Positions 1 to 33,113 of a stretch of 64,000 nucleotides of DNA are shown here, piece after piece. A model generated the notes under the pieces. The model saw only the letters and a list, made by a program, of their open reading frames with translations, did no database searches and was not told the DNA's origin. Source of the stretch: Escherichia phage chee24. The stretch is from sequence record NC_047885.1. The stretch is one strand, 5' to 3'. Position numbers and translations under genes: made by a program. Numbering within the stretch: the first letter of the stretch is position 1; each line of letters starts with the position of its first letter.

Positions 1-132
1 AAAGATTTGCTACTAAAAATGCTTCGAACAGAAATTCACAAAATCCCGCTAAAAACATACCTATTGTAAAATCGGCAGAAAATACATAGGAATCTTTTAT
101 TTTCTGCTTCATTAAGTAAAACCAGATAGTCA

Positions 133-450
133 TTAAAATCTCTCCATTCTAAAGCCAATGAAGTAAGGTGCATTACACGGAACATGCTTAAGATCTTTAA
201 GAGTAATTTTACGTCCTAAGCGTCGTTCCATACAAGTGAAACATAGAACAATATCTTTGGGCTGCTCTTTTCTTATCTGATCCCAGACCCAATCTTCAAC
301 CATACACATTTCATGGTATTGTTCACAGTCTCGACAATAATGACACTGATGTTCTGGTACTTTTTGATTTTTAATACACAGTTCAGTAAAGCGTTTTCCG
401 GCTCTGCCAGACATTTCTGATATTGTTTCTAGAACTTTGTTAATATTCAT
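133..450 (-). CDS. hypothetical Cys/His-rich small protein (105 aa), possible zinc-binding
   Basis: ORF with ATG at 450 preceded by AAGGA; clustered Cys/His (HQCHYCRDC, CFTC). Confidence 0.55.
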   Translation of the reverse strand: MNINKVLETISEMSGRAGKRFTELCIKNQKVPEHQCHYCRDCEQYHEMCMVEDWVWDQIRKEQPKDIVLCFTCMERRLGRKITLKDLKHVPCNAPYFIGFRMERF

Positions 451-467
451 AACAAATTCCTTTAAAT

Positions 468-546
468 TGGTAGATCGCCTGGGACTCGAACCCAGAACCT
501 TCCGATTAAAAGTCGGATGCTACTAAACCTATTGAGCTAGCGACCT
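468..546 (-). tRNA. tRNA-Lys (anticodon UUU), CCA encoded
   Basis: Hand-folded cloverleaf: 7-bp acceptor stem, T-arm CTGGG-TTCGAGT-CCCAG, anticodon stem TCCGA/TCGGA with loop CTTTTAA. Confidence 0.6.
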
Positions 547-547
547 A

Positions 548-715
548 TTAGTAGCCATTATATACTTCTTTAATAGAATAGACTTTTAGGTAAGAATGAT
601 TAATCCCAAACTCCGCCATTACTTCTTTTTCATTTTTTCCATAATGTGCAAGTAAGAATCTTGAGGTATTATTACCTAAACGTTTGTCACTTACTACTAA
701 TCGAAATACTTTCAT
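548..715 (-). CDS. small hypothetical protein (55 aa)
   Basis: Unlisted ORF below the 60-aa track cutoff; ATG at 715 preceded by AGAGGA; fills the gap between two tRNAs. Confidence 0.35.
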   Translation of the reverse strand: MKVFRLVVSDKRLGNNTSRFLLAHYGKNEKEVMAEFGINHSYLKVYSIKEVYNGY

Positions 716-739
716 TTCGAAATCCTCTATTAAAAGGGA

Positions 740-812
740 AGCGGGTGCAGGAATCGAACCTACCTCTTTCTAGCTTATGAGACTAGCGATCTCTACCAGA
801 GATCTAACCCGC
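740..812 (-). tRNA. tRNA-Met or Ile2 (anticodon CAU), no encoded CCA
   Basis: T-arm GTAGG-TTCGATT-CCTGC, anticodon stem CTAGT/GCTAG with loop CTCATAA; acceptor stem has one terminal mismatch. Confidence 0.55.
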
Positions 813-819
813 AATTGTT

Positions 820-895
820 TGGTCAGTGCGGCAGGACTCGAACCTGCGACCCGAAGCATCCAAGGCTCCCACGCTACCAACTGCGCTACGCACTG
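820..895 (-). tRNA. tRNA-Pro (anticodon UGG), CCA encoded
   Basis: Acceptor CAGTGCG/CGCACTG, T-arm GCAGG-TTCGAGT-CCTGC, anticodon loop CTTGGAT. Confidence 0.65.
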
Positions 896-925
896 TTAAT
901 TTTGTTAACTCACTTTATAAGATAT

Positions 926-954
926 ATTATACAGAGAATTAAGTAAAATAGCAA
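926..954 (-). promoter_or_regulatory. sigma70-like early promoter (minus sense TTGCTA-17-TATAAT) driving the tRNA-Pro/Met/Lys cluster
   Basis: Plus-strand ATTATA at 926-931 and TAGCAA at 949-954, 17-bp spacer, A/T-rich upstream element. Confidence 0.6.
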
Positions 955-970
955 ATGAATTTTTAATAAA

Positions 971-1092
971 TTTACTTATTATGTAGGCCGCCTGGAGGCT
1001 ACCAACCCCACGGCTGACAAAGAAGTTTGCGAGACTTCTCTTAAAAGCCAGAATAGACCCGCCGGTCTATCGGAACCTACATAATAAGTAAA
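971..1092. repeat. perfect 17-bp inverted repeat (TTTACTTATTATGTAGG / CCTACATAATAAGTAAA) flanking an 88-bp core
   Basis: Arms at 971-987 and 1076-1092 are exact reverse complements; core contains a further hairpin AGAAGT-TTGCGAG-ACTTCT. Confidence 0.8.
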
Positions 1093-1104
1093 CTTTATAG
1101 TGTC

Positions 1105-1226
1105 ATTCTAGGCAGGACTCGAACCTGCTATCACTTGTGCGGACTTACGAGAACCATTCTTTCACTCGAATCGAACGAGCTTCTGCCCTCGCCAAGCTGG
1201 TTTCCCCCATCAACCACGCTAGAATG
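1105..1226 (-). ncRNA. tRNA-like element, possible pseudo-tRNA or disrupted tRNA
   Basis: Canonical T-arm GCAGG-TTCGAGT-CCTGC at 1111-1128 and 7-bp acceptor-like pairing between 1105-1111 and 1219-1225, but span is too long and no clean anticodon arm was found. Confidence 0.25.
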
Positions 1227-1347
1227 TTAGATTGTTTTCAGTGCAAGAGTCCGAGTCTTGGACACGACCGCTTCGCAAGTACATAGGCAGCTTATCATGA
1301 GTCAGCACTTCCGAATTGCTAGCTCCGTGTTCTGCACTGAAATTTTA

Positions 1348-1695
1348 TTAGTTTAATCGTAAAGTATTATCTACTTCACCATTAATTGTTCGGCATTCCT
1401 CTGGAATTGCCGGGGTGGCCTTGTATTCCCACCATTCAGCACCGTCATATTCCCCACGTTCTAGCCAAGTTCCATCGGCAAACCATACATTACCATAAAG
1501 TAATTGTCCGCCGTATCCAGAATCATATTCAAAGTCTAGGTTATTAAGAAAATCCTCAATATCTTCTTCTGTATAGCCTAAAGGTAATACCCAGACTTTT
1601 TTGTCCCCATAATACCCAAATTCTATTTTAATACACTTAACTTCAGAATTAGTATTTTTTAAGGCAAGTAACAGCTCTTCTTTAGCATTACGCAT
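1348..1695 (-). CDS. hypothetical protein (115 aa)
   Basis: ORF in the minus-strand gene series; protein-like composition. Confidence 0.5.
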   Translation of the reverse strand: MRNAKEELLLALKNTNSEVKCIKIEFGYYGDKKVWVLPLGYTEEDIEDFLNNLDFEYDSGYGGQLLYGNVWFADGTWLERGEYDGAEWWEYKATPAIPEECRTINGEVDNTLRLN

Positions 1696-1720
1696 AATAT
1701 ATTCTCATACTGAATTAATT

Positions 1721-1797
1721 TGGCGCGACCGATGGGATTTGAACCCACATTCTCTCCCGTGACAGGGGAGTACCATTACCAAGCCAGCCCCGGTCGC
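1721..1797 (-). tRNA. tRNA-Asp (anticodon GUC), CCA encoded
   Basis: Acceptor GCGACCG/CGGTCGC, T-arm ATGGG-TTCAAAT-CCCAT, anticodon stem CTCCC/GGGAG with loop CTGTCAC. Confidence 0.65.
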
Positions 1798-1806
1798 ATA
1801 ATTTAT

Positions 1807-1992
1807 TTACTCAGCTTTGAGTTTTTCAATAGCTGCATTAAGTTCTTTAAGAAACTCTTTTCGTACATTAAGACGATTGAGACTTACTAGTATATCATGT
1901 TTAAGTTCTTCGATGTATTTCTTCTCAACTTCAATATTGTTGATAGTACTATCACGATGAACTTCTAGCTGCGCAATCACATTCTTGGACAT
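1807..1992 (-). CDS. small hypothetical protein (61 aa), predicted coiled coil
   Basis: ORF between tRNA genes; heptad-like charged/hydrophobic pattern. Confidence 0.4.
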   Translation of the reverse strand: MSKNVIAQLEVHRDSTINNIEVEKKYIEELKHDILVSLNRLNVRKEFLKELNAAIEKLKAE

Positions 1993-2094
1993 GCTTGTTT
2001 CCTCAGTTATTAATGAAAATGGTATCTGTGGCTGAATTCGATGTCAGCAATGATAGCTGGTTGGCTACCGGTTTACTTAACTCTACACAGAATT

Positions 2095-2172
2095 TGGCGG
2101 TTCCTGCTGGATTCGAACCAGCAACCCTCAACTTAACAAGATGCCGCTCTAACCAATTAGAGCTAAGGAACC
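2095..2172 (-). tRNA. tRNA, probably Asn (anticodon GUU), CCA encoded
   Basis: Acceptor GGTTCCT/AGGAACC, T-arm GCTGG-TTCGAAT-CCAGC, D-arm GCTC..GAGC; anticodon stem weak so anticodon is tentative. Confidence 0.5.
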
Positions 2173-2667
2173 ATATAAGTCAGAACTAGAGTTAATACGT
2201 CCTAGATATTTACTAAGATCCCTAGAATTTATACTAAACCACTCATGTTCTTTTAAATCTTTGAAATACTGGTGAATTAGTTTTTCACCTTTTCGTTTGT
2301 CAAACCAAAAAGACCAATGCTCTAACTTATAATCCCTATAGGGGGAATAAGTCTGATATTGAGCTAATCTCTCTTTTGGATTTTGACTCATACCTATTTT
2401 ATACTGATTTTTCCATGCAGGATTACTAATACAGTATACAAAACCTTCGGAAATAGGAAGTTTATTTTCCTGCTTAAACTTTATAAAGGAAAGTGCAGCA
2501 AGTTTTCTTGAATACATAGTATTCGTATTCTTTTTGGTATTACCATTGGTTCCTGAAAGATTTATATATTCTTCTATAAATCTCTGGATTAGTTCTGCGG
2601 TTATATAGAAGGGCTCATTAGTAACAACGCCTTTCTTTACCAAACTATCAAAAACTTTTGTATGCAC
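2149..2667 (-). CDS. T5orf172-domain protein (GIY-YIG-like nuclease fold, 172 aa)
   Basis: Motif GFVYCISNPAWKNQYKIGMS...YSPYRDYKLEHW typical of the T5orf172 family; 3' end overlaps the tRNA at 2095-2172. Confidence 0.65.
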   Translation of the reverse strand: MHTKVFDSLVKKGVVTNEPFYITAELIQRFIEEYINLSGTNGNTKKNTNTMYSRKLAALSFIKFKQENKLPISEGFVYCISNPAWKNQYKIGMSQNPKERLAQYQTYSPYRDYKLEHWSFWFDKRKGEKLIHQYFKDLKEHEWFSINSRDLSKYLGRINSSSDLYGSLALIG

Positions 2668-2688
2668 TACTTCTTTCCTTTAGTAATT

Positions 2689-2764
2689 TGGACGACCGCA
2701 TGAGATTTGAACTCACATAAAAAGGATTTGCAATCCTTCGCCTAAGCCATTCAGCCAACGGTCG
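2689..2764 (-). tRNA. tRNA-Cys (anticodon GCA), CCA encoded
   Basis: Acceptor CGACCGT/GCGGTCG, anticodon stem AAGGA/TCCTT with loop TTGCAAA, T-arm GTGAG-TTCAAAT-CTCAT. Confidence 0.65.
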
Positions 2765-2942
2765 ATTTATCTTGTTTTTCGAGATCTTCAAATTCTAAAT
2801 CATTGAAGTTCCCTAGAGTACGGGAGTAGAACCCGTCTCCTACGTCATAGCCTGATTTACCACAATCACACATTTTAAACTCTCTATAACGAGTGAAAAT
2901 ATGTTCAGAACCACAACACTTAAATTTAACTAACATTTTCAT
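2751..2942 (-). CDS. small Cys-rich protein (63 aa), possible zinc ribbon
   Basis: ORF with CC..H and CDC motifs. Confidence 0.45.
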   Translation of the reverse strand: MKMLVKFKCCGSEHIFTRYREFKMCDCGKSGYDVGDGFYSRTLGNFNDLEFEDLEKQDKSTVG

Positions 2943-3181
2943 TTAACACGCTCCGGTAAATCTTCGAGTTTATATTGGGTAGCCACATTAGCAGCATCTA
3001 GTAACAAACCCATATGTTTAAGAATCCTGGTGATAGCCTCGCCTTCTGCTTCTTCTACAAAGCAACGTAGATTAACGAAGTCAATACCACCATCCATACC
3101 AGAGAAAATGTTTAGTAAGCGAAACATTACCAGCTTACGTTCTTTCAATTCTTGTTCTGTCATGTTGCTTCTCCAGTTCAA
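2939..3181 (-). CDS. hypothetical protein (80 aa)
   Basis: ORF start overlaps the stop of the upstream ORF (coupled pair). Confidence 0.5.
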   Translation of the reverse strand: MNWRSNMTEQELKERKLVMFRLLNIFSGMDGGIDFVNLRCFVEEAEGEAITRILKHMGLLLDAANVATQYKLEDLPERVK

Positions 3182-3213
3182 TTTATGTAATTATTATATA
3201 GAACTTTTGGAAA

Positions 3214-3501
3214 CTAAGCAACTACATTTTTTAGGAATTTGATCCCTTTCTTTTTCTTCTTATATTTCCACGTTAATGGATTCTGTCGATTATGAACGCT
3301 TGAGATCTTTGTCTCGTCAAAGTTCTTCAATATCATGTAATCACAGGATAATTGTTCTAGTGGAATGTGATCACCGTCAAAAGCGTATACATAAGGCTGT
3401 TGACTAGCACGATAATGATAGACTTTGTTAATTCTACGTTTCAGCGACTTATCCGCGCAGTAAATAAAGAAGTTTTCAGGATGCATCAGCATCTCCTTCA
3501 A
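3214..3501 (-). CDS. hypothetical protein (95 aa)
   Basis: ORF in the minus-strand series. Confidence 0.5.
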   Translation of the reverse strand: MKEMLMHPENFFIYCADKSLKRRINKVYHYRASQQPYVYAFDGDHIPLEQLSCDYMILKNFDETKISSVHNRQNPLTWKYKKKKKGIKFLKNVVA

Positions 3502-3503
3502 TT

Positions 3504-3578
3504 TGGTGCACCCTGTTCGTATCGAACGAACCTCTCAAGCTCTTCAGGCAAGCGCTAATCCATCTCAGCTAAAGGTGC
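3504..3578 (-). tRNA. tRNA, probably Phe (anticodon GAA), CCA encoded
   Basis: Acceptor GCACCTT/AGGGTGC, D-arm GCTG..TAGC, perfect T-arm GTTCG-TTCGATA-CGAAC; anticodon stem has two U-U mismatches. Confidence 0.5.
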
Positions 3579-3584
3579 AAATTT

Positions 3585-3665
3585 TGGCAAACCCACTAGG
3601 ACTCGAACCTAGACCGTACGGTTTTGGAGACCGACATGCTGTCCAGTAACACTCTAGGAATGCAG
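3585..3665 (-). ncRNA. tRNA-like element with Trp-like anticodon loop (CTCCAAA) but no acceptor-stem pairing
   Basis: T-arm CTAGG-TTCGAGT-CCTAG and 3' CCA present; no complementary 5' strand found within tRNA distance. Confidence 0.3.
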
Positions 3666-3669
3666 AAAT

Positions 3670-3763
3670 TGGTACACCCACGGAGAATTGAACTCCGATT
3701 CTCAGATTGAACTCCGATTCTCAGATTGAAATCCTGATGTCCTAGCCATTAGACGATAGGTGT
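3670..3763 (-). tRNA. tRNA-Glu-like gene (anticodon UUC) with a 19-bp tandem duplication at the variable-loop position
   Basis: Removing one repeat copy gives a 75-nt cloverleaf (acceptor ACACCTA/TGGGTGT, D-arm GTCT-AATGGCTA-GGAC, anticodon stem TCAGG/TCTGA, T-arm CGGAG-TTCAATT-CTCCG); as encoded it is 94 nt. Confidence 0.45.
3687..3730. repeat. perfect 19-bp tandem duplication (ATTGAACTCCGATTCTCAG x2) plus a 6-bp partial third copy
   Basis: Exact copies at 3687-3705 and 3706-3724. Confidence 0.85.
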
Positions 3764-3771
3764 ATTAAATT

Positions 3772-3859
3772 TGGTGGGCGTTAATGGAGTCGAACCACTC
3801 GAGTCGCAATGACCAGGGATTTACAATCCCCTCCGCTACCACTTACGGAATAAACGCCC
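3772..3859 (-). tRNA. tRNA-Tyr (anticodon GUA), long variable arm, CCA encoded
   Basis: Acceptor GGGCGTT/AACGCCC, anticodon stem GGGGA/TCCCT with loop TTGTAAA, 88-nt length with extra arm. Confidence 0.6.
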
Positions 3860-3987
3860 ATATTTAGAAGCATTCAAATACTTGTTTAAACACTTTTAAA
3901 TATGTTTCCGAATTAGATAACTATTATACCAAGTTTTAAGGCACTGAGCAAGTCAAATTTTAAAGAACTTGCTCAGTGCTGTATTAG

Positions 3988-4263
3988 TTAGTCGAACTTA
4001 GGAGTGATAGTTAAGGAGAACGGAAGTTCGAAAACTTCTTCGCCCTCATTACTAACGGTAACTACACGACCTTTAAGTTCAGACATTAAAATATCAATAT
4101 CAGCTTTTGCATCTGGAGCCATGCCAGCTTCAATACATTTAGCTTTAACTTCCGGTAAAAGCTCTACGTTATAGAGATAGAGCCACTCAATCTCACCTTC
4201 CCAGTCTTCCCAGGATTTGCAGATTGCACTTTCAATACCAGTTGCTACAACACGATTTTGCAT
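3988..4263 (-). CDS. hypothetical protein (91 aa)
   Basis: ORF with promoter-like TTGCCT-18-TATAAT (minus sense) at about 4290-4345 upstream. Confidence 0.55.
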   Translation of the reverse strand: MQNRVVATGIESAICKSWEDWEGEIEWLYLYNVELLPEVKAKCIEAGMAPDAKADIDILMSELKGRVVTVSNEGEEVFELPFSLTITPKFD

Positions 4264-4353
4264 TAATTAACTCCTTCATCAATTTATATAACTATTATAC
4301 CAGAAATTTAAAGTAAAAGGCAAGTACATTTTTAAAAATTCTGTTTGGAGGAG

Positions 4354-4560
4354 CTAAACTCCAGATTTTTCGGCCAAGTCTAGACTAATAAGAGTTATAG
4401 CCATAATTGCTGCACCGTGTTCTTTTTCTCCGGTGTTTTTAGCAGAGTCTATAATATCCTTAATCTGTTCGTAATAACTTTTTACTTCTTGTTCAATGCC
4501 TGCCTCGGCTATCATGCCTTTAGCCATGAATCGTTGCATGGTAATTTCAGGATTAGCCAT
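4354..4560 (-). CDS. hypothetical protein (68 aa)
   Basis: ORF; start overlaps the stop of the 4553-4720 ORF. Confidence 0.5.
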   Translation of the reverse strand: MANPEITMQRFMAKGMIAEAGIEQEVKSYYEQIKDIIDSAKNTGEKEHGAAIMAITLISLDLAEKSGV

Positions 4561-4720
4561 GTTGTTTCTCCAGTTTCATTTTTAATAGTTTACAGATGAA
4601 ATCAACGTCTTCATCTGTGCCTAAGTCTCTATCCTCAAGGGTCGCCTTGAAGTTTTTCGTCAATTCCATGAGGATGACTTCCCTAGAACGACGTGTTGGC
4701 GGAGGTGGATGTCTATACAT
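4553..4720 (-). CDS. small hypothetical protein (55 aa)
   Basis: Unlisted ORF below the track cutoff, coupled to the downstream gene. Confidence 0.35.
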   Translation of the reverse strand: MYRHPPPPTRRSREVILMELTKNFKATLEDRDLGTDEDVDFICKLLKMKLEKQHG

Positions 4721-4735
4721 CTTATTTCCTTAATT

Positions 4736-4812
4736 TGGTAGGGGTGGTGGGATTCGAACCCACAAAACCTGAATTTTAAGTCCAGTACCTATGCCAATTC
4801 GATTACACCCCC
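4736..4812 (-). tRNA. tRNA with anticodon UAA (Leu-like, but short variable loop)
   Basis: Acceptor GGGGGTG/CACCCCT, T-arm GTGGG-TTCGAAT-CCCAC, anticodon stem CTGGA/TTCAG with loop CTTAAAA. Confidence 0.5.
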
Positions 4813-5107
4813 ATGTAATCAGTTTATTAGTTGATACATATTATAGCCTAAAGAAAACCCTACTACTAATCCTACGAACCAACCAATATAATAATCTTTT
4901 AATTTCACGGGTGTCAACCTCGTTCAATATCTAGAGAAATACCACAGGTAGGATTAATGCCTGTGCCTTTGCACGTCGGACAAACCCAGATATTACAGAA
5001 TGTATCCCCTGCTTCTGCATCAGAACTTTTCCAACTCCTAGACAGTTAGGACAGGCACATTCTTCTAGCTCTTGCTTGAGTTCTTGAAACTTAGACATAT
5101 AGTTTCC

Positions 5108-5296
5108 TTATTCAATTACTTTTGAGGCTTCAAGGGAGTCGATATAGTGTACGTTTTCTACCATGATCATATAATCTGCCACTTTATCCATAGCCTGAGC
5201 TTCAGAGGTAGCCCTGGCTAACCTATATCCTTTTTTATATTCATCCGGGTATTCCCTATCTGGAATAAACACAACACAAACTAGGTATAGTTCCAC
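5108..5296 (-). CDS. hypothetical protein (62 aa)
   Basis: ORF in the minus-strand series. Confidence 0.4.
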   Translation of the reverse strand: MELYLVCVVFIPDREYPDEYKKGYRLARATSEAQAMDKVADYMIMVENVHYIDSLEASKVIE

Positions 5297-5317
5297 TTGT
5301 AACCTCTCTAATCAAGA

Positions 5318-5395
5318 TGGTGGCTCCCCGAGGATTCGAACCTACGTACCTTCCGGTTATGAGCCGGATGCTCATACCATATGAGCTTGAGAACC
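5318..5395 (-). tRNA. tRNA-Met or Ile2 (anticodon CAU), CCA encoded
   Basis: Acceptor GGTTCTC/GGGAGCC, anticodon stem TCCGG/CCGGA with loop CTCATAA; T-stem imperfect. Confidence 0.55.
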
Positions 5396-5401
5396 AGAAT
5401 T

Positions 5402-5490
5402 TGGCGGAAGAAGTGGGAATCGAACCCACAAGGCTATATTTCAAACCGACAGATTAGCAATCTGCTGCAATACCGTTATGCTATTCTTCC
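5402..5490 (-). tRNA. tRNA-Ser (anticodon GCU), long variable arm, CCA encoded
   Basis: Acceptor GGAAGAA/TTCTTCC, anticodon stem GCAGA/TCTGT with loop TTGCTAA, T-arm GTGGG-TTCGATT-CCCAC, 89 nt. Confidence 0.6.
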
Positions 5491-5505
5491 GAATTTATAA
5501 GATAT

Positions 5506-5534
5506 ATTATATTAGAAATTTAGCTTCATAGCAA
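5506..5534 (-). promoter_or_regulatory. sigma70-like early promoter (minus sense TTGCTA-17-TATAAT) upstream of tRNA-Ser
   Basis: Plus-strand ATTATA 5506-5511 and TAGCAA 5529-5534; same conserved promoter family. Confidence 0.55.
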
Positions 5535-6030
5535 GAAAATTTTTCAAGTTTTCGGTAGACATCTCATCCACATCTACAGGAGAAACAAATCCATTTAATT
5601 GTCTAGCAAATTTTTCACCAGCAGGATCATTATCCCCAACAGCTACCAATTTAAAAGGTAGTAATTTCAATTGCTTTAACAACGCTTTTCCTGGAGAAGA
5701 ACCCAACATTGCCAGGGCTGGATAACCAGCGTTATGTAATGCTACGGCCTTAAATACAGATTCCGCAACCAATACTACTTTTTCATCCCCATTGAGAGTT
5801 TCCAGCCCCCATACACACTGTGTAGTAGAATAAGTAAAATACTTAGCTTCAAAAGGAGATTTACCATGACCTTTTGGAGCAGAAGGATTATAAGTCTGAT
5901 AGCCTCTCAACATCCCAGAGAAGTCATACAATGGGACTGTTAGCCATCCTTCCGGACTTAACCAGCAATGATATTTATCTGTATCAAACCCTCTAGATAA
6001 GAGATGTTCTGTTAGTTCATCAACAGTCAT
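5512..6030 (-). CDS. TOPRIM-domain protein, primase-like paralog lacking a zinc finger (172 aa)
   Basis: VVLVAESVFKAVAL and VAVGDNDPAG motifs (Glu plus DxD) align with the TOPRIM region of the primase at 37630-38520. Confidence 0.55.
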   Translation of the reverse strand: MTVDELTEHLLSRGFDTDKYHCWLSPEGWLTVPLYDFSGMLRGYQTYNPSAPKGHGKSPFEAKYFTYSTTQCVWGLETLNGDEKVVLVAESVFKAVALHNAGYPALAMLGSSPGKALLKQLKLLPFKLVAVGDNDPAGEKFARQLNGFVSPVDVDEMSTENLKNFLAMKLNF

Positions 6031-6058
6031 ATTAGATTCCTCTCAAATTTATAAATAT

Positions 6059-6087
6059 ATTATACAGAGGATTTAGCATTCAAGCAA
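6059..6087 (-). promoter_or_regulatory. sigma70-like early promoter (minus sense TTGCTT-17-TATAAT) for 5512-6030
   Basis: Plus-strand ATTATA 6059-6064 and AAGCAA 6082-6087. Confidence 0.55.
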
Positions 6088-6165
6088 TTGAATTTTTTAA
6101 CTTTTTAGAGGAAAATCACAGGATGCTTACGGGTAGCAGGTAAGTGGTCAGGACCGAAATTTGTG

Positions 6166-6195
6166 ACCCCACTAAAAATCTGGGGTCAATTTTTA
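6166..6195 (+). terminator. rho-independent terminator-like hairpin at the 5' edge of the plus-strand cassette
   Basis: Stem GACCCCA/TGGGGTC with 9-nt loop, followed by AATTTTTA. Confidence 0.5.
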
Positions 6196-6203
6196 AAGAC
6201 CCC

Positions 6204-6232
6204 TTGACATTTTTGCCGGGGTAGTGTAAAGT
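6204..6232 (+). promoter_or_regulatory. sigma70-like promoter (TTGACA-17-TAAAGT) for the plus-strand cassette
   Basis: Consensus -35 at 6204-6209, 17-bp spacer, -10 TAAAGT 6227-6232, AGGAGG RBS at 6280. Confidence 0.6.
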
Positions 6233-6295
6233 ATATGTTATGGATGAGTGATCAAAGAGACACACATTTTCTATATACTAGGAGGTGTCAAAAAA

Positions 6296-7275
6296 TGACA
6301 GAAGAAGTAGCTAAGAGTCCTGAAACCGTCGCTAGCGTAGCAGCAGAACTGCATCGTCACGAGGAATCAGATAAGAAAAAGTGGGAGAAAGTCAAAGCCT
6401 ACGAAGAAGAACATCGTGAACACGATGATAAAGATGAAGAAGATGACGATGATGAACATTGTCATAAATATGGAAAACATAAAATGCAAGAACCAGTAAA
6501 CGTATTTACTAATGGCTTCCCTGGCATGGGTGCATTCCCAGCTAACGCAAGTGCTTTCGGTGGAGAAGGTATGGGTCTATTCGGAGCTATCCTAATCGGT
6601 GCTCTATTAACAGGCGGATTTGGTGGTTTTGGTGGTTTTGGCCGTGGTGCTGGCGTTGCCGCTGAAGGGACTGCTGTGGACGCGATCCTTTCTAACCAAG
6701 ATACTGCAAGTATTCTAGCTGCAATCAATACTACTCGTACAGAAGCTAACCAGGGCACTGGGGCTGTTCTAAGCGCAGTAAACGGTGTGGGAGCTGCTCA
6801 AGCTGCTAGCACTCAGCAAGTTCTGACTACTATCTACGGTACAGGTGCTAATCTGTCAAACCAGATCTGTGCTGAAACTCGTAACGTTATTCAGGGTCAG
6901 TTCGATCTTTCTCGTCAGATGGATCAATCTTTCGCTGCTAACCAGATCGCACGTGCTCAAGATAAGTTTGACTCTGCTCAGATTGCTTTCCAGCAGTCTA
7001 TTCAGACCAATAACCAGTTTGCCGCTGTTCAGGCTCAGATGTGTGCTAACCAGAATGCTATAGAGCGTCAGCTTGCTGAATGTTGCTGTGAACTTCAGAC
7101 TGCGATCGCTGGTGTAACTACTGCGCGTATCCAGGACGAACTGAATGAATGCCGTCTGCGTGAAGCAATCGCTCAAGGTAGTGGTGCTAACGGTCAGGTA
7201 ATTAACCAAATCGCTGTAAGTCTTGGTGCTATCACTCAGACTCTGGCTGGTCTGCAGGCTAAACTGCCGGCTTAA
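6296..7275 (+). CDS. hypothetical protein (326 aa): acidic N-terminus, Gly-rich hydrophobic segment, Gln/Ala-rich C-terminal half
   Basis: Track ORF 6235-7275 trimmed to the ATG at 6296 behind AGGAGG; segment GMGLFGAILIGALLTGGFGGFGGFG looks like a glycine-zipper membrane helix; codons look more GC-rich than neighbours. Confidence 0.6.
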
Positions 7276-7296
7276 AATTAAGGGGAGGAGCCCATT

Positions 7297-7713
7297 ATGA
7301 GTAAATATGGTTTTGTAAACAACGGATTTAATCAACAAATGGGCTCCCAGCAGCCCGTTCCGGGTCTGGATAATCCTTACCTACAACAGTTGCAACAGCG
7401 TTTAGCAGAAGCGCAACAGATGCAGCAACAACTCCAGCAAAACCCTGGAAGTGTGAGTCCTATGCAAATGATGCAGCAAATGAGCGGGCAGTCGCAAATG
7501 CCTCAACAAATGCAGCAACAGGTGCCTCAGCAGCAAGTTCAGCAACAAACCCAACAACCGCAGGTTTCTGCGGAAGGACAGGCAGTACTAGCTCTTTTCG
7601 AAGATTTCGCAAAGACAGAGGATGGGAAACAGCTTGTATCACTTATGGGTAAGTTTAATAGCTTCTGCCAAAGCCAGGTTGCAAAAGCTCAAAATGGTGA
7701 TAATAACTCCTAA
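7297..7713 (+). CDS. Gln-rich low-complexity protein (138 aa)
   Basis: ATG behind GGGGAGGAG RBS; long QQ(M/L)QQ tracts. Confidence 0.55.
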   Translation: MSKYGFVNNGFNQQMGSQQPVPGLDNPYLQQLQQRLAEAQQMQQQLQQNPGSVSPMQMMQQMSGQSQMPQQMQQQVPQQQVQQQTQQPQVSAEGQAVLALFEDFAKTEDGKQLVSLMGKFNSFCQSQVAKAQNGDNNS

Positions 7714-7722
7714 GGAGGAATT

Positions 7723-7917
7723 ATGTGTTGCAGAAAATCTGTTTCGTGCTGCCCAATGCCTGTAGCACGTTGTTGCTCTCCAGCAATGTTTACACAAATA
7801 CCGGCGTTCAATCCCTTTGCCTTTAAGCCTACTCTTATCCTGCCCCCTAGAGTAGATTTTCAGTCAAGATTGGCCTCCCGTATGGGTGGTTGCTGTAACA
7901 AGAGTATATGGTTCTAA
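7723..7917 (+). CDS. small Cys-rich protein (64 aa) with four Cys-Cys doublets
   Basis: ATG behind AAGGAGG RBS; sequence MCCRKSVSCC..RCCS..GGCCNK. Confidence 0.5.
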   Translation: MCCRKSVSCCPMPVARCCSPAMFTQIPAFNPFAFKPTLILPPRVDFQSRLASRMGGCCNKSIWF

Positions 7918-7933
7918 AGAACCAATAATAAAA

Positions 7934-7966
7934 AGCCCCTAGTCGAAAGACTTAGGGGCTTTTCTC
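7934..7966 (+). terminator. rho-independent terminator ending the plus-strand cassette
   Basis: Stem AGCCCCTAGTC / GACTTAGGGGCT with GAAA loop, followed by TTTTCTC. Confidence 0.7.
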
Positions 7967-7975
7967 TTATCTTAA

Positions 7976-8014
7976 ATACAGAAAAGCCCTGCGCTCTCCA
8001 GGGAACGCAGGGCT
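7976..8014 (-). terminator. rho-independent terminator downstream of the SPFH gene
   Basis: Stem AGCCCTGCG/CGCAGGGCT; minus-sense T-tract from plus AGAAAA. Confidence 0.6.
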
Positions 8015-8038
8015 TACTTCGAATATTACGTGTGGGTA

Positions 8039-8986
8039 TTACTTGTTACGCATATCCATAATCATCTGGCCATCATAACCAGTGCCAACCACAGTCTGCG
8101 GTACACCACCTTGATACTTCTGAGCACGAATCATTTCAACTTCTAGTTGCTTCCAGCGAATCATCTCAGGAGTAATGGTACGTTGCAGAGCAGCGTTAGC
8201 TTCAGCTTCTTTCTTAGCTGCATACAGTTTAGCATCTGCATCACGTTCGTTTGCAATAGCTTGGTTGTTACGAGCTTCACGATCTGCTTCTGCTTGTTTA
8301 ACCTTCTGCTGTGCTTCTTGTTCAACGCGAGCTAATTCAGCTTTCGCAGCATTAACTTGTTCTTCGCGAACTTTGGTATTCTGTACCTGTTCCATAATTA
8401 CCGGTGGCAATGTAATATCCTGAAGGAACACTTGCTTAACTGTGTAACCATAGGGGCGTGCATACTCTTCAACTTCCTGTTGAATTGCAGTTTGCAATTG
8501 TGCTTGAATTTTAGCATCAAACAAATCTTGTGCTTTAGGTACAGACTTACCAAACTCACGAATAGTAGACAGTAATTTTTCAGTTACATACTTATCTAGA
8601 GCCTGATCTTGAGTACCCGCATTAATACGGTTGATCGGTGCCTTAGAACCATCAAACTGCAACATAACAGTCAGGTCAACAGTGGATTTAAACTTATCCT
8701 GGCTAGGAACCTGAAGTTTATCTAATTTTACAGCAATATCTTTTGTACTAAAAGTATCGAAAGATGCAAATGGGTTTACAAGATGGAAACCAGGTAATAC
8801 TGGGTTAGGATCTACTTTACCTAGAAATGTTTGGGTTTTAACCGTACCATCAGAAACAATAGTATATGAATTAAAAGCTAGGATTAAACCTGCTAAACCA
8901 ACTACAGCACCAATACTCCAACGTTTAATAGTGCGAATTACTTTTTGCTCAGAAGTCAGTTCTTTCATATTTTTAGTATTAGACAT
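8039..8986 (-). CDS. SPFH/band-7 (prohibitin/HflC-like) membrane protein (315 aa)
   Basis: N-terminal membrane anchor (WSIGAVVGLAGLILAF), SPFH-like core, long Ala/Glu/Gln-rich coiled-coil C-terminus. Confidence 0.65.
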   Translation of the reverse strand: MSNTKNMKELTSEQKVIRTIKRWSIGAVVGLAGLILAFNSYTIVSDGTVKTQTFLGKVDPNPVLPGFHLVNPFASFDTFSTKDIAVKLDKLQVPSQDKFKSTVDLTVMLQFDGSKAPINRINAGTQDQALDKYVTEKLLSTIREFGKSVPKAQDLFDAKIQAQLQTAIQQEVEEYARPYGYTVKQVFLQDITLPPVIMEQVQNTKVREEQVNAAKAELARVEQEAQQKVKQAEADREARNNQAIANERDADAKLYAAKKEAEANAALQRTITPEMIRWKQLEVEMIRAQKYQGGVPQTVVGTGYDGQMIMDMRNK

Positions 8987-9020
8987 ATATTTCCTTTGTT
9001 TTAGTTACAGTTAATAAAAT

Positions 9021-9095
9021 TGGCCGAGGTGACAGGATTCGAACCTGCATAAAGGAATTTAGAAGACTCCTGCCTCTCCCTTAGACTACACCCCG
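9021..9095 (-). tRNA. tRNA-Arg (anticodon UCU), CCA encoded
   Basis: Acceptor CGGGGTG/CACCTCG, anticodon stem GGAGT/ATTCC with loop CTTCTAA, T-arm GCAGG-TTCGAAT-CCTGT. Confidence 0.6.
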
Positions 9096-9597
9096 TTTAA
9101 GTATTTTTAAGAACTCTCGTAAAAACTCTTAAAAATACAGACGATACCGGGAGAGTCATAAGTCTCACTCATTAAGTATTTCAAGACAAAATACAGTAAC
9201 GTCTATTATTTTCCAGTTTAAGTCAAGGTGACTTAGTGGTTATGTCCTGCGGTATACTGAGGACTAGGTTAGGTTAGGGTCATGACTCCCCACCTTTTTG
9301 CTGCTACTCAACAGGAGTTATCGCGAATTACCTGTGCTATTGTGCACCATTAGTGGCATCTCTCATGCCAGCATTTCCCACTTTGTGGATAGTTTGAAAA
9401 ACTACTCCGATATGGAGAAAGAACTTCACTATCCTAGAATACCTTCTAAAGTTCTTCTTTAGCCTGGACATAGTTAAATCGTAATAAAACTATTCAGCAG
9501 ACTGGTTGGTTAGTCTGGAACCAACTACCGCGTGGTTTAGGCAGTGCGCAACTAACCTCGGAAGCTTTTACATTAAAAGCACCAGTTATCCAGTTCT

Positions 9598-9670
9598 TAC
9601 CGACCGTAGGATTCGAACCTACATCTTCCACCAGTTACGGCTTGATAATACCGTTTTATACTAGATCGGC
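9598..9670 (-). ncRNA. tRNA-like element (canonical acceptor stem and T-arm, irregular core)
   Basis: Acceptor GCCGATC/GGTCGGT and T-arm GTAGG-TTCGAAT-CCTAC; no standard anticodon arm identified. Confidence 0.3.
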
Positions 9671-9893
9671 AGTGTTACTACATAAGTGATTTCCACACCC
9701 CACTATCAGTAAATTAGAGAAGAGTTTAGGGGAGAGGTTTCAGACGCCCCATTTTACACGTTCTAGCCACTAACCGGGATTGCCGCCCCCTGTGTACTAG
9801 TTTTCCAACTAACCCACCGACTCTATTCAATGCGCTCCGGTTGGGATTCTGCACTCAGCGTAATCGGCTCGCTGTTCTCTAATTTATGAATAT

Positions 9894-9922
9894 ATTATAC
9901 AGAATTTATAAGCATTTAGCAA
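9894..9922 (-). promoter_or_regulatory. sigma70-like early promoter (minus sense TTGCTA-17-TATAAT)
   Basis: Plus-strand ATTATA 9894-9899 and TAGCAA 9917-9922; points into the 9100-9700 region, tRNA-Arg and the SPFH gene. Confidence 0.55.
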
Positions 9923-9930
9923 ATAAATTT

Positions 9931-10374
9931 TTAATTAAATTCGCCAGCAATCTGAGCAGCAGTACCACCATCATAACGCCCAGGAAATTCTTCCTTAATC
10001 GCTTTCATCAGCATACCTTTTGTAATTCCAGGGTTTAGCTTAACTAATTCTGCAAAGTATTTACGAATCTCAGTATCAGATAACTGAGGAGGCAGATACT
10101 CCTGCAACCACTTATTTAGAATGTATTCATACTGAGTGGACTGCAAGCTATAACTATCAAGATCTTGACCATGAAGTTTAGCTTTCATCTGGTTAATGCT
10201 TTTTAGTTGAGCTTTGAGATAAGACACAAATTGTTCAGAAGTGATGAAATCTTTATCAATACGCTGAAGATCCCCGATTATGGTCTGATAGCTTTTAGCG
10301 ACTTCTTTATCAGAACCATTAAACTTAGAATCCTGCAAAGCTCTACGCAAAACATCTAAAATATTCTCTTCCAT
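9931..10374 (-). CDS. GatB/YqeY-domain protein (147 aa)
   Basis: C-terminal YLPPQLSDTEI...GRYDGGTAAQIA resembles the YqeY family signature. Confidence 0.55.
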   Translation of the reverse strand: MEENILDVLRRALQDSKFNGSDKEVAKSYQTIIGDLQRIDKDFITSEQFVSYLKAQLKSINQMKAKLHGQDLDSYSLQSTQYEYILNKWLQEYLPPQLSDTEIRKYFAELVKLNPGITKGMLMKAIKEEFPGRYDGGTAAQIAGEFN

Positions 10375-30646: not shown

Positions 30647-30863
30647 AAAATGGGAAACAAGGAAGTTTCCAGTGAAAGAGCGTAAAGTTCCTGTTTATGA
30701 TACTTCGGAAAAGCTATGTAGGGTGGTACCACATAGATTAGCTGGTATCCCTAACATATCCGAGTGGTTACTTAAACAACGGAGGACTAACGTATCTCTT
30801 CGCATAGGGTTTGAGTTAGATAAAGTATATGCTGAACTTTCTTCTTTGCTCAAGGAATCGTAA
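30630..30863 (+). CDS. small hypothetical protein (77 aa)
   Basis: ATG behind AGGTG; overlaps the end of the NTPase gene. Confidence 0.4.
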   Translation: MTVKNKKWETRKFPVKERKVPVYDTSEKLCRVVPHRLAGIPNISEWLLKQRRTNVSLRIGFELDKVYAELSSLLKES

Positions 30864-30871
30864 AAATTTAT

Positions 30872-30900
30872 TTGCTTTCAGGAAAATTTTTCTGTATAAT
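30872..30900 (+). promoter_or_regulatory. strong early promoter matching the classic T5 P_N25 sequence from memory
   Basis: AAAAATTTATTTGCTTTCAGGAAAATTTTTCTGTATAATAGATTCATAAATTTGAGAGAGGAG; -35 30872-30877, -10 30895-30900. Confidence 0.85.
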
Positions 30901-30931
30901 AGATTCATAAATTTGAGAGAGGAGTTTAAAT

Positions 30932-31636
30932 ATGGCTGGTTCTCGCAGAAAGAAACATATCCATGAAATCCCTGATGAAGTCTTTAAAAAAGTTATAGAG
31001 CATCTGGAGAACGGTGGTACCAAGAAAGCAGCTTGTGAAATGCTCGGCGTATCATCCAATCCAACTATGGAAAGGATGATTGAAGAATGGCAAGATCGCC
31101 AAATTCAAGTTGCCGAGATGAAGAAAAAGAAACGTGGTACACTCATTGAAGGTATTGAGTTGGCCAACGTTATTGAACAGTATCTATCTGGCGATTCTTT
31201 TGAAGAGATTGCCGATCGTAATTACCGCTCTGTAGCAATGGTTAAATCTGTTCTGGAACGATATGGTGCTCTACTTCGTTTGAACGATATTGTAGACCCA
31301 TTGAATCCTCCAATTATCCCTGACGATGCTGTAGCAGAAGAATTTGAAGTTGGAGAACTAGTTTGGGTTCCTGGATACCAGTGTATCGGTGAAATCAAAA
31401 AAGCAATGGATAATCCTGTTGGTTGTTATCGAGTCTGGTTACTATCGGAAGGAAAACAACAGAACGTTCATTATATGAATTACGAGCTGGCTTCTGTTAA
31501 ACATCTGGAAAAGTTAGGGGTTGACGTAAAATCTCTGGGGTACAAGTGGACTCGTGAAGAAGTTATTACGTTGATTAATGAAGCTGTTAAGGCTGCCTTG
31601 AAACTTGATAAAGAAAAAGGAAAACGCCGTGAGTAG
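30932..31636 (+). CDS. helix-turn-helix domain protein (234 aa), putative regulator
   Basis: HTH-like GGTKKAACEMLGVS near the N-terminus; first gene behind the P_N25-like promoter. Confidence 0.6.
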   Translation: MAGSRRKKHIHEIPDEVFKKVIEHLENGGTKKAACEMLGVSSNPTMERMIEEWQDRQIQVAEMKKKKRGTLIEGIELANVIEQYLSGDSFEEIADRNYRSVAMVKSVLERYGALLRLNDIVDPLNPPIIPDDAVAEEFEVGELVWVPGYQCIGEIKKAMDNPVGCYRVWLLSEGKQQNVHYMNYELASVKHLEKLGVDVKSLGYKWTREEVITLINEAVKAALKLDKEKGKRRE

Positions 31637-31880: not shown

Positions 31881-31897
31881 CTACTTAAAAATTTCAG

Positions 31898-31926
31898 TTG
31901 CTTAATCCTATAATTCTTGATATAAT
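31898..31926 (+). promoter_or_regulatory. sigma70-like early promoter (TTGCTT-17-TATAAT)
   Basis: -35 31898-31903, -10 31921-31926. Confidence 0.6.
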
Positions 31927-31983
31927 ATTCTCATAGTTTGAAAGAACTATTCTGTTTAATTCTTAATTAAGGAAATATAAAAT

Positions 31984-32394: not shown

Positions 32395-32430
32395 TTTTTA
32401 GATAAATCCACCAACAAAAGGAACACAGTT

Positions 32431-33104: not shown

Positions 33105-33113
33105 TAAATGTAT

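What the first reader, a model, noticed from the sequence alone, without database searches (positions are those of the whole stretch)
3670..3763. tRNA-Glu-like gene carrying a perfect 19-bp tandem duplication at the variable-loop position
ATTGAACTCCGATTCTCAG occurs twice back to back (3687-3705, 3706-3724) with a 6-bp partial third copy. Deleting one copy restores a textbook 75-nt cloverleaf with anticodon UUC. The duplication spans the anticodon-stem/T-arm junction, so the encoded RNA has a roughly 23-nt variable region. It may be a recent slippage event that inactivated the tRNA, a tRNA turned into a long-variable-arm species, or a tRNA-derived regulatory RNA.
Basis: seen in the sequence. 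Interest (0 to 1): 0.6.

Follow-up and report, generated by a model that had tools for sequence, protein, structure and literature searches.

The report
Recent 19-bp duplication inside phage tRNA-Glu
One near-clonal lineage of T5-like phages carries a fresh 19-base copy-slip duplication inside its glutamate tRNA gene, which probably cripples a dispensable tRNA: a real but ordinary mutation.

Summary
The window is T5-like phage pork27 (MF431731.1, bases 32000-95999). On the minus strand at 3670-3763 lies a 94-nt tRNA-Glu(UUC) gene containing a perfect 19-bp tandem duplication plus 6 further bases in register (3687-3730). Removing one copy gives a 75-nt cloverleaf.

In RNA sense the repeat reads TTCAAT-13nt-TTCAAT-13nt-TTCAAT. 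The hexamer is U34-U39 (anticodon UUC plus AAU) and also U54-U59 (T loop). Every single-copy relative already has these two hexamers 19 bp apart, which is the signature of slippage between short direct repeats.

A query that only a duplicated allele can seed hits just the five near-clonal chee24-group records out of 50,697 phage records. The junction is absent from IMG/VR, JGI metagenomes and GTDB genomes. Close relatives carry the 75-nt form and differ by one base.

The extra 19 nt can be read as a 23-nt variable arm, a 26-nt anticodon loop or a 26-nt T loop. Each reading disrupts something the host Glu-tRNA synthetase or the tRNA fold needs, and the predicted minimum-energy fold is no longer a cloverleaf. 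T5 mutants lacking the whole tRNA region are viable.

Verdict: a recent, lineage-specific, probably inactivating or neutral mutation. There is no evidence of a conserved new RNA. Interest is low.

The parts
3670..3763 (-). tRNA-Glu(UUC) gene, 94 nt, with encoded CCA end. The 75-nt ancestral form carries a 19-nt internal tandem duplication.
   Evidence: ARAGORN. Rfam RF00005 scores 47.5 bits. GenBank annotates it as tRNA-Glu, P27_t0021.
3687..3730 (-). 44-bp period-19 run: two perfect 19-bp units (3687-3705, 3706-3724) plus a 6-bp partial third unit.
3725..3730 (-). Hexamer TTCAAT number 1 (RNA positions 34-39: anticodon UUC at 3728-3730, then A37, A38, U39).
   Evidence: Coordinate map; sequence.
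3706..3711 (-). Hexamer TTCAAT number 2 (RNA positions 53-58). This is the novel junction copy created by the duplication.
   Evidence: The junction 24-mer is absent from all other collections.
3687..3692 (-). Hexamer TTCAAT number 3 (RNA positions 72-77), the start of the T loop (U54-U59 of the ancestral tRNA).
3702..3717 (-). Predicted new hairpin (5-bp stem UCGGA/UCUGA with loop GUUCAA). It is formed by the first copy of the T-stem 5' strand and the second copy of the anticodon-stem 3' strand, and is the 'variable arm' in ARAGORN's model.
   Evidence: ARAGORN drawing. Helix probability 0.77 in the Boltzmann ensemble.
3681..3697 (-). T arm (CGGAG-UUCAAUU-CUCCG) in the ARAGORN and Infernal register.
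3772..3859 (-). tRNA-Tyr(GUA), 8 nt upstream of tRNA-Glu in the same gene block.
   Evidence: Nearly identical (at most one base difference) to the close relatives.
3585..3661 (-). tRNA-Trp(CCA), 8 nt downstream of tRNA-Glu.
3504..3578 (-). tRNA-Phe(GAA), the last tRNA of the Tyr-Glu-Trp-Phe block.
3895..3969 (-). Homologue of T5 promoter P14a, with extended -10 TGGTATAAT at 3923-3931. It is the likely promoter of the Tyr-Glu-Trp-Phe block.
   Evidence: T5 annotates P14a upstream of tRNAY. The alignment shows the core nearly identical. The simple sigma-70 scan missed it.

Best explanation
This is an ordinary T5-type phage tRNA-Glu(UUC) gene that suffered a recent tandem duplication mediated by short direct repeats.

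In the ancestral 75-nt gene the hexamer TTCAAT occurs twice, 19 bp apart. One copy is U34-U39 (anticodon UUC plus AAU) and the other is U54-U59 (T loop). During replication the nascent strand, having copied the second hexamer, re-paired with the first and copied the intervening 19 bp again. Unequal exchange between the hexamers would give the same product. The result is TTCAAT-13-TTCAAT-13-TTCAAT.

The event happened once, in the ancestor of the near-clonal chee24 group, and the copies have not diverged since.

The gene probably still sits in a strongly transcribed Tyr-Glu-Trp-Phe block, so a 94-nt product is probably made. That product has three competing cloverleaf registers and a non-cloverleaf minimum-energy fold. 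Each register damages a feature needed for charging by E. coli-type GluRS or for the tRNA elbow. The most likely consequence is loss or strong reduction of tRNA-Glu function. The phage tolerates this because its tRNA genes are dispensable and the host supplies tRNA-Glu(UUC).

Shown: the duplication, the repeats in the ancestral allele, its restriction to one lineage and the promoter conservation. Inferred: the slippage mechanism, transcription, misfolding and loss of charging.
For: Structure of the repeat:
- Two perfect 19-bp copies plus 6 bp in register; the hexamers sit at RNA positions 34-39, 53-58 and 72-77.
- Single-copy orthologues all contain TTCAAT...TTCAAT 19 bp apart. IrisVonRoten, HildyBeyeler and MET_P1 differ from the window's gene by the 19-bp gap plus one base, the others (VAH1, OSYSP, S124, SSP1) by up to three bases.

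Census:
- A 44-nt query that only a duplicated allele can seed hits 5 of 50,697 phage records, all from the chee24 group.
- About 64 other records match a longer query only as a single copy.
- The junction 24-mer has 0 hits in IMG/VR, JGI metagenomes and GTDB genomes.

Provenance and age:
- The chee24-group isolates differ by 2-5 SNPs and were each sequenced by Illumina 2x150 and assembled with SPAdes (PMC5816814).
- The nearest non-clonal relatives are 95.6-97% identical over the tRNA region.

Function:
- The Rfam tRNA score drops from 53.6-54.7 bits (single copy) to 47.5 bits.
- Fold energies: non-cloverleaf MFE -26.5 kcal/mol, against -24.7, -24.2 and -22.5 for the three cloverleaf registers. 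The summed cloverleaf fraction is about 2.4%, against 6.4% for the single-copy RNA.
- The single-copy form has the E. coli Glu identity set: U34 U35 C36 A37, U11-A24, U13-G22, A46 and a 4-nt variable loop lacking residue 47. Its D stem is identical to host tRNA-Glu.
- Absence of residue 47 and the augmented D helix are major GluRS determinants (PMC9976931). The variable-arm register removes this feature.
- T5Mos, with deletion 30661-38625 that includes tRNAE at 35257-35333, is viable, and deletions in the tRNA region are described as non-essential (PMC11464382; coordinates).
- E. coli carries a median of 4 tRNA-Glu genes.
- The P14a promoter core is conserved upstream, and the tRNA-Tyr promoter of a T5-like phage is reported to be very strong (PMC11555353).
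Against: - No read-level data were available, so an assembly artefact or a mixed population cannot be formally excluded.
- The five records come from one laboratory and one pipeline and are almost identical, so they represent one evolutionary event and only weakly independent observations.
- Loss of function is not shown. ARAGORN and Rfam still accept the RNA as a tRNA.
- The acceptor stem, D arm, anticodon arm and T arm can all still form, with a tidy 5-bp extra arm resembling a class II tRNA.
- Nearest-neighbour energies predict real tRNA folding poorly: even the intact form has only a 6% predicted cloverleaf fraction.
- The lineage was recovered from foods from three countries, so the allele is at least not strongly deleterious.
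Confidence: 0.78

Rival explanations
1. The 94-nt RNA is still a working tRNA-Glu. It folds as a cloverleaf with a class-II-like long variable arm, or with the extra 19 nt looped out of the T loop so that the native 4-nt variable loop is kept. It is processed, charged by GluRS and used in translation, making the duplication effectively neutral.
For: ARAGORN and Rfam still call a tRNA. All four canonical arms remain formable, and the extra segment makes a stable 5-bp hairpin with probability 0.77. The anticodon loop AUUUCAA with U34 U35 C36 A37 is unchanged in two of the three registers. The allele persists in isolates from several foods and countries.
Against: A long variable arm removes the 'no residue 47' / augmented-D-helix determinant, which is a major GluRS identity element (PMC9976931). 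The T-loop register is the least stable, at -22.5 kcal/mol and 0.05% of the ensemble. The predicted MFE is not a cloverleaf. No relative has adopted this form.
Confidence: 0.12
2. The duplication is a sequencing or assembly artefact, or a laboratory-passage variant, and the natural phage carries the 75-nt gene.
For: All carriers come from a single study and pipeline and differ by only 2-5 SNPs. The junction is found nowhere else.
Against: Five separately deposited assemblies of slightly different length all contain it. The 44-bp repeat is much shorter than the 150-nt reads and shorter than SPAdes' larger k-mers, so collapse or expansion is unlikely (inference). The product has the exact form expected from real slippage between pre-existing hexamers.
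Confidence: 0.04
3. The altered gene has gained a new role as a stable tRNA-like RNA made from the strong tRNA-Tyr promoter. It might be a decoy or sponge for a tRNA-targeting defence nuclease or a modification enzyme, or a regulatory RNA.
For: The T5 tRNA region encodes several stable 'tRNA-like' RNAs of unknown function, larger than tRNAs (T5 annotation; homologues in this window). T5 tRNAs are known anti-defence tools: tRNA-Lys against PARIS (PMC11464382) and tRNA-Tyr against retron-Eco7 (PMC11555353). The promoter is conserved.
Against: There is no conservation beyond one clone, no divergence or compensatory change, and no similar duplication in other tRNA genes of the T5 or chee130_1 regions. 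The two T5 anti-defence papers opened contain no mention of tRNA-Glu, and two further literature searches surfaced no anti-phage system reported to target it. The T5 stable RNAs are unrelated sequences located elsewhere.
Confidence: 0.04
4. The extra 19 nt is an intron-like insertion in the anticodon loop (position 37/38) that is removed after transcription.
For: The sequence can formally be written as an insertion after A37 within a 26-nt anticodon loop. That register is nearly as stable as the variable-arm one, -24.2 against -24.7 kcal/mol.
Against: The insert is an exact copy of the adjacent tRNA sequence, not foreign sequence. At 19 nt it is far too short for a self-splicing group I intron, and enterobacteria lack a tRNA splicing endonuclease (established knowledge). 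ARAGORN run with intron search still models it without an intron. Orthologues have no insert.
Confidence: 0.01

Closest known systems
Single-copy 75-nt tRNA-Glu(UUC) of T5-like phages (e.g. IrisVonRoten bas32_0095, HildyBeyeler bas33_0096, MET_P1_100_107, OSYSP, S124, SSP1)
   Same: Same locus between tRNA-Tyr and tRNA-Trp. The sequence is identical apart from the duplication and one base: position 1 (A versus G) or one D-loop base.
   Different: The window's gene has 19 extra bases. Its Rfam score is 6-7 bits lower, and the cloverleaf is no longer the predicted MFE.
Microhomology-mediated (replication-slippage) tandem duplications between short direct repeats
   Same: The ancestral allele has two 6-bp direct repeats 19 bp apart. 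The product is repeat-unit-repeat-unit-repeat with perfect copies.
   Different: Nothing mechanistically different. The only curiosity is that the two repeats are the anticodon segment (UUC-AAU) and the T-loop motif (UUC-AAU) of the same tRNA.
tRNA pseudogenes and tRNA-like stable RNAs of phage T5 (pseudo tRNA-Gln2; RNA1, RNA2, RNA3)
   Same: Same genomic region. T5 annotation already records a defective tRNA and oversize tRNA-like stable RNAs of unknown function.
   Different: Those RNAs are unrelated in sequence. They are conserved across T5-like phages, and homologues lie at window 982-1226 and 2020-2092. ARAGORN does not recognise them as tRNAs. The duplicated tRNA-Glu is lineage-specific and is still recognised as a tRNA.
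Class II (long-variable-arm) bacterial tRNAs (Leu, Ser, Tyr)
   Same: The predicted extra stem-loop lies between the anticodon and T arms: a 5-bp stem and 6-nt loop within a 23-nt variable region.
   Different: The isotype is Glu, whose synthetase requires a short variable loop lacking residue 47. The arm is not conserved in any relative and arose by duplication of flanking arm sequence.
T5-family anti-defence tRNAs (tRNA-Lys against PARIS, tRNA-Tyr against retron-Eco7)
   Same: Same tRNA-rich region. The gene lies immediately downstream of the anti-retron tRNA-Tyr and its strong promoter.
   Different: The papers opened or surfaced here report no defence role or host nuclease target for tRNA-Glu. 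Anti-defence tRNAs differ from host tRNAs by point substitutions, not by internal duplications.

Membership tests
tRNA (Rfam RF00005, canonical cloverleaf) | Score above the curated gathering threshold of the covariance model | tested here: met
   47.5 bits against a threshold of 29, covering model positions 1-71.
tRNA (Rfam RF00005, canonical cloverleaf) | 7-bp acceptor stem, 4-bp D stem, 5-bp anticodon stem with a 7-nt loop (U33, anticodon at 34-36), 5-bp T stem with a UUCRA loop, discriminator base plus CCA | tested here: met
   ARAGORN drawing and parsed arms. These hold in the variable-arm register.
tRNA (Rfam RF00005, canonical cloverleaf) | Class I variable region of 4-5 nt, as in all orthologues of this gene | tested here: not met
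   The variable region is 23 nt in the ARAGORN register. Infernal shows a 20-nt insertion there.
tRNA-Glu accepted by E. coli-type GluRS (identity set, PMC9976931) | U34, U35, C36, A37 in the anticodon loop | tested here: met
   The anticodon loop is AUUUCAA. The loop is kept at 7 nt only in registers A and C.
tRNA-Glu accepted by E. coli-type GluRS (identity set, PMC9976931) | U11-A24 pair and U13-G22:A46 triple (augmented D helix) | tested here: met
   The D stem GUCU/GGAC is identical to E. coli tRNA-Glu, and A46 is present in the variable loop GAAU of the single-copy form. Whether the triple forms in the 94-nt RNA is unknown.
tRNA-Glu accepted by E. coli-type GluRS (identity set, PMC9976931) | Absence of residue 47 (4-nt variable loop) | tested here: not met
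   Met in the 75-nt orthologues and lost in the variable-arm register of the 94-nt form. It is kept only if the extra 19 nt sits in the anticodon loop or the T loop instead.
tRNA-Glu accepted by E. coli-type GluRS (identity set, PMC9976931) | G1-C72 and U2-A71 (weak determinants) | tested here: not met
   The window has A1-U72 and C2-G71; most relatives have G1.U72. This is also true of the presumably functional single-copy forms.
tRNA-Glu accepted by E. coli-type GluRS (identity set, PMC9976931) | Actual aminoacylation with glutamate | not testable with these tools
   Needs charging assays or charged-tRNA sequencing.
Slippage / microhomology-mediated tandem duplication | Short direct repeats flanking the duplicated unit in the unduplicated allele | tested here: met
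   TTCAAT occurs twice, 19 bp apart, in the seven close single-copy orthologues fetched (IrisVonRoten, HildyBeyeler, MET_P1, VAH1, OSYSP, S124, SSP1).
Slippage / microhomology-mediated tandem duplication | Head-to-tail identical copies ending in a partial copy equal to the repeat | tested here: met
   A 44-bp run made of 19 + 19 + 6 bp with 100% period-19 identity.
Slippage / microhomology-mediated tandem duplication | Derived state restricted to one lineage | tested here: met
   Only 5 clonal records of 50,697 carry it, and there are 0 hits in three other collections.
Class II long-variable-arm tRNA | Base-paired variable arm between the anticodon and T arms | tested here: inconclusive
   A 5-bp stem is predicted with probability 0.77. 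It competes with non-cloverleaf helices, and no probing data exist.
Class II long-variable-arm tRNA | Isotype Leu, Ser or Tyr (bacteria) and conservation of the arm among orthologues | tested here: not met
   The anticodon is UUC (Glu), and orthologues have a 4-nt variable loop.
Intron-containing tRNA | Foreign insert in the anticodon loop with a self-splicing (group I) fold or a bulge-helix-bulge motif | tested here: not met
   The insert is an exact copy of neighbouring tRNA sequence and only 19 nt long. ARAGORN's intron mode does not invoke an intron.

The most novel reading that the evidence does not exclude
The 94-nt product is a stable, correctly end-processed tRNA-like RNA made at high level from the strong tRNA-Tyr (P14a) promoter, and it has a use. 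It could be a natural class-I-to-class-II conversion in which a long-variable-arm tRNA-Glu is born in a single slippage step and still functions. Alternatively it could act as a decoy for a tRNA-targeting host defence or modification enzyme.
Probability: 0.05. Interest if true: 0.5.

Novelty: new member of a known kind. Interest (0 to 1): 0.15.

Why it matters
It matters little for biology at large. It is one more example of short-repeat slippage, here hitting a dispensable phage tRNA gene.

Three modest points of value:
- It flags a likely non-functional or altered tRNA that the GenBank records list as a plain tRNA-Glu, which affects tRNA counts for the chee24 group.
- The anticodon segment UUC-AAU of this tRNA-Glu allele duplicates its own T-loop motif, creating a built-in slippage hotspot.
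- A single slippage step yields a predicted class-II-like extra arm. This gives a cheap natural test case for how much variable-region expansion GluRS, RNase P and the ribosome tolerate, should anyone compare the isogenic alleles.

Tried and rejected
- An IMG/VR scan for the conserved 5' half returned only three contigs, all known isolates (S124, SSP1, OSYSP). The census therefore had to rest on the annotated phage collection.
- A 'distant' search with the Trp-Glu-Tyr block was swamped by unrelated phage tRNA-Tyr hits and was not useful for the census.
- My guess of MF431730.1 as the accession for chee24 itself matched no record in the collection. That chee24 carries the duplication is only inferred from its genome length, which equals that of pork29 and saus47N.
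- The simple sigma-70 scan found no minus-strand promoter upstream of tRNA-Tyr. Alignment to T5's annotated P14a showed the promoter is there but has a weak -35 and an extended -10.
- I tested whether T5's 'tRNA-like stable RNAs' are precedents for duplicated tRNAs. ARAGORN does not call them, they are unrelated in sequence, and there are no tandem repeats inside the tRNA genes of the T5 or chee130_1 regions.
- A literature search for internal tandem duplications in tRNA genes returned mainly mitochondrial whole-gene duplications and no direct precedent.
- In the two T5 anti-defence papers opened, tRNA-Glu is not mentioned, and two further literature searches surfaced no anti-phage system reported to target it.
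- The intron reading was rejected.
- Limitation: older duplications with diverged copies would escape the exact-seed census.

Full report
**What is there**

Over its first 12 kb the window is 100% identical to five deposited T5-like phages of the 'chee24' subgroup: pork27, pork29, saus47N, saus111K and poul124. The offset shows it is MF431731.1 (pork27) from base 32000. Bases 1-10,000 form the T5-type tRNA-rich region, with 15 tRNA genes, all on the minus strand.

At 3670-3763 (minus) ARAGORN calls a 94-nt tRNA-Glu with anticodon UUC. The GenBank record annotates the same 94-nt feature simply as tRNA-Glu. Rfam's tRNA model scores it 47.5 bits against a threshold of 29.

**Checking the observation**

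The unit ATTGAACTCCGATTCTCAG occurs only at 3687 and 3706, back to back. Period-19 identity continues for six more bases, giving a 44-bp run at 3687-3730. It is the highest-scoring tandem repeat in the 64-kb window. The chance expectation is about 2e-7.

Removing one copy gives a 75-nt sequence that ARAGORN again calls tRNA-Glu(UUC). Its minimum-energy fold is exactly the cloverleaf. The only correction is that the gene lies on the minus strand.

**Anatomy**

In RNA sense the region reads TTCAAT-CTGAGAATCGGAG-TTCAAT-CTGAGAATCGGAG-TTCAAT.
- The first hexamer is U34-U39: the anticodon UUC followed by A37, A38 and U39.
- In the ancestral gene the second hexamer is U54-U59, the start of the T loop.
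- The duplicated unit therefore carries the 3' strand of the anticodon stem, the 4-nt variable loop, the 5' strand of the T stem and part of a loop.

Because of the flanking hexamers, the position of the insertion is not defined by the sequence. The extra 19 nt can equally be described in three ways:
- (A) A 23-nt variable region. ARAGORN and Infernal choose this register.
- (B) A 26-nt anticodon loop.
- (C) A 26-nt T loop.

**Comparison with relatives**

I fetched the orthologous locus from 14 other phages and extracted tRNA-Glu from each.

The seven close relatives with the same allele (IrisVonRoten, HildyBeyeler, MET_P1_100_107, VAH1, OSYSP, S124, SSP1) have a 75-nt gene. The closest three (IrisVonRoten, HildyBeyeler, MET_P1) differ from the window's gene only by a clean 19-bp gap plus one base, and the others by up to three bases. 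The neighbouring Tyr and Phe genes are nearly identical in the four relatives aligned, and Trp in three of them (VAH1 diverges there). All seven already contain the two TTCAAT hexamers 19 bp apart.

The census gave these results:
- A 44-nt query made only of the repeat run, which a single-copy allele cannot seed in megablast, hits just the five chee24-group records among 50,697 phage records.
- A longer query shows about 64 further records matching only as a single copy.
- The junction-specific 24-mer is absent from IMG/VR, from the JGI metagenome contigs and from 185,579 GTDB genomes.

The source paper states that the six chee24-group isolates differ by 2-5 SNPs. Each was sequenced with 2x150 Illumina reads and assembled with SPAdes. 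The paper does not comment on this tRNA (PMC5816814). The nearest non-clonal genomes are 95.6-97% identical over the tRNA region and are single-copy.

**Origin**

Four facts together are the textbook signature of one recent slippage, or unequal exchange, between short direct repeats:
- The two copies are identical.
- The direct repeats pre-exist in the ancestral allele.
- The product has the repeat-unit-repeat-unit-repeat form.
- The duplication is restricted to one near-clonal lineage.

An assembly artefact is unlikely. The repeat is far shorter than the reads, and five separately assembled genomes of slightly different length share it. Without the reads, however, an artefact cannot be excluded.

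**Consequence (inferred)**

The single-copy form carries the E. coli glutamate identity set. It has U34, U35, C36, A37, U11-A24, U13-G22 with A46, and a 4-nt variable loop lacking residue 47. Its D stem is identical to the host tRNA-Glu, whose sequence I verified against 5,394 E. coli genomes. [quoted passage not shown]

Each register damages something:
- Register A destroys the short variable loop.
- Register B expands the anticodon loop that carries the strongest determinants.
- Register C expands the T loop that builds the tRNA elbow.

The energy model gives these values:

| Fold of the 94-nt RNA | Energy (kcal/mol) |
|---|---|
| Non-cloverleaf MFE | -26.5 |
| Register A | -24.7 |
| Register B | -24.2 |
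| Register C | -22.5 |

The three cloverleaf registers sum to about 2.4% of the ensemble, against 6.4% for the intact tRNA. The new 5-bp hairpin, formed by the first copy of the T-stem 5' strand and the second copy of the anticodon-stem 3' strand, is the most probable new helix at 0.77. The Rfam score falls by 6-7 bits relative to the single-copy orthologues. These figures suggest impaired folding and charging but do not prove it.

**Expression context and dispensability**

T5's curated record places promoter P14a just upstream of tRNA-Tyr, at the head of the Tyr-Glu-Trp-Phe block. The window conserves that region almost base for base, including an extended -10 TGGTATAAT at 3923-3931. A T5-like phage's tRNA-Tyr promoter was shown experimentally to be very strong (PMC11555353). 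The altered gene, 8 nt downstream of tRNA-Tyr, is therefore probably still transcribed.

T5 variants with large deletions of this region are viable, and these deletions are called non-essential. One example is T5Mos, with deletion 30661-38625, which covers tRNAE at 35257-35333 (PMC11464382). The host carries a median of four tRNA-Glu(UUC) genes. Loss of this phage tRNA should therefore be tolerated in ordinary hosts.

**Rivals**

- A still-functional long-arm tRNA-Glu cannot be excluded (about 0.12).
- An artefact has about 0.04.
- A new decoy or regulatory RNA has about 0.04. Nothing supports it: there is no conservation or covariation, no similar duplication in other tRNA genes of the T5 or chee130_1 regions, and no mention of tRNA-Glu in the two T5 anti-defence papers opened, with no system reported to target it surfacing in two further searches.
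- An intron is effectively refuted. The insert is a copy of adjacent tRNA sequence, it is only 19 nt long, and ARAGORN's intron mode does not use one.

**Verdict**

This is a real, recent, lineage-specific 19-bp slippage duplication in a dispensable phage tRNA-Glu gene. It most likely reduces or abolishes the tRNA's function. It is a new instance of a well-known kind of mutation in a well-known kind of gene, and interest is low (0.15). The mildly curious points are that this tRNA's anticodon segment repeats its own T-loop motif, and that one slip yields a predicted class-II-like extra arm.

Noticed in passing
window 3670-3763, compared with L007 7258-7334 (T5), L005 6517-6593 (chee130_1), L011, L012 and L015: Two unrelated tRNA-Glu(UUC) genes occupy the same slot between tRNA-Trp and tRNA-Tyr in different T5-like phages. 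One is a 75-nt 'GCACCTATCGTC...' type whose D stem is identical to E. coli tRNA-Glu. The other is a 77-nt 'GTCCTGTTAGAC...' type found in T5, chee130_1, GEC_vB_N3, NBSal005 and 8sent1748. This looks like cassette-like allele replacement at a fixed locus.
   Followed up: partly
window 3941-3979 (stems at 3941-3953 and 3967-3979), minus strand: A perfect 13-bp-stem hairpin lies immediately upstream of the extended -10 element of the P14a-type promoter. It is conserved in T5, IrisVonRoten and HildyBeyeler, with differences only in the loop. It could be a terminator or processing site for the upstream ORF, or a promoter-overlapping regulatory element.
   Followed up: no
window 9597-9671 (-): ARAGORN calls an odd 'tRNA-Ser(ACU)' with an 8-bp acceptor stem and a weak D arm. 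Rfam's tRNA model scores it 34.5 bits. It lies inside the homologue of T5's 719-nt 'RNAX' stable RNA of unknown function, and ARAGORN finds the same element in T5.
   Followed up: partly
window 982-1082, 1101-1226 and 2020-2092 (-): These are homologues (96-100% identity) of the T5 stable RNAs RNAIV, RNA2 ('tRNA-like') and RNA3 ('putative tRNA-like'). They are not annotated in the pork27 record, and ARAGORN does not recognise them as tRNAs.
   Followed up: partly
L009 (VAH1) about 480-565; L011 (GEC_vB_N3) 638-1129: The block around tRNA-Glu is mosaic. VAH1 has a diverged, unannotated sequence in place of tRNA-Trp. GEC_vB_N3 and its relatives have a 492-nt ORF inserted between tRNA-Glu and tRNA-Tyr, and no tRNA-Trp or tRNA-Phe is annotated there.
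   Followed up: no
window 3772-3859 (-): In the permissive Rfam scan the phage tRNA-Tyr is reported only as a sub-threshold tRNA-Sec match (33.2 bits against a threshold of 47), not as a generic tRNA. This reflects its long variable arm. Some records label the orthologue 'tRNA-OTHER' or 'tRNA-Pseudo-GTA'.
   Followed up: no
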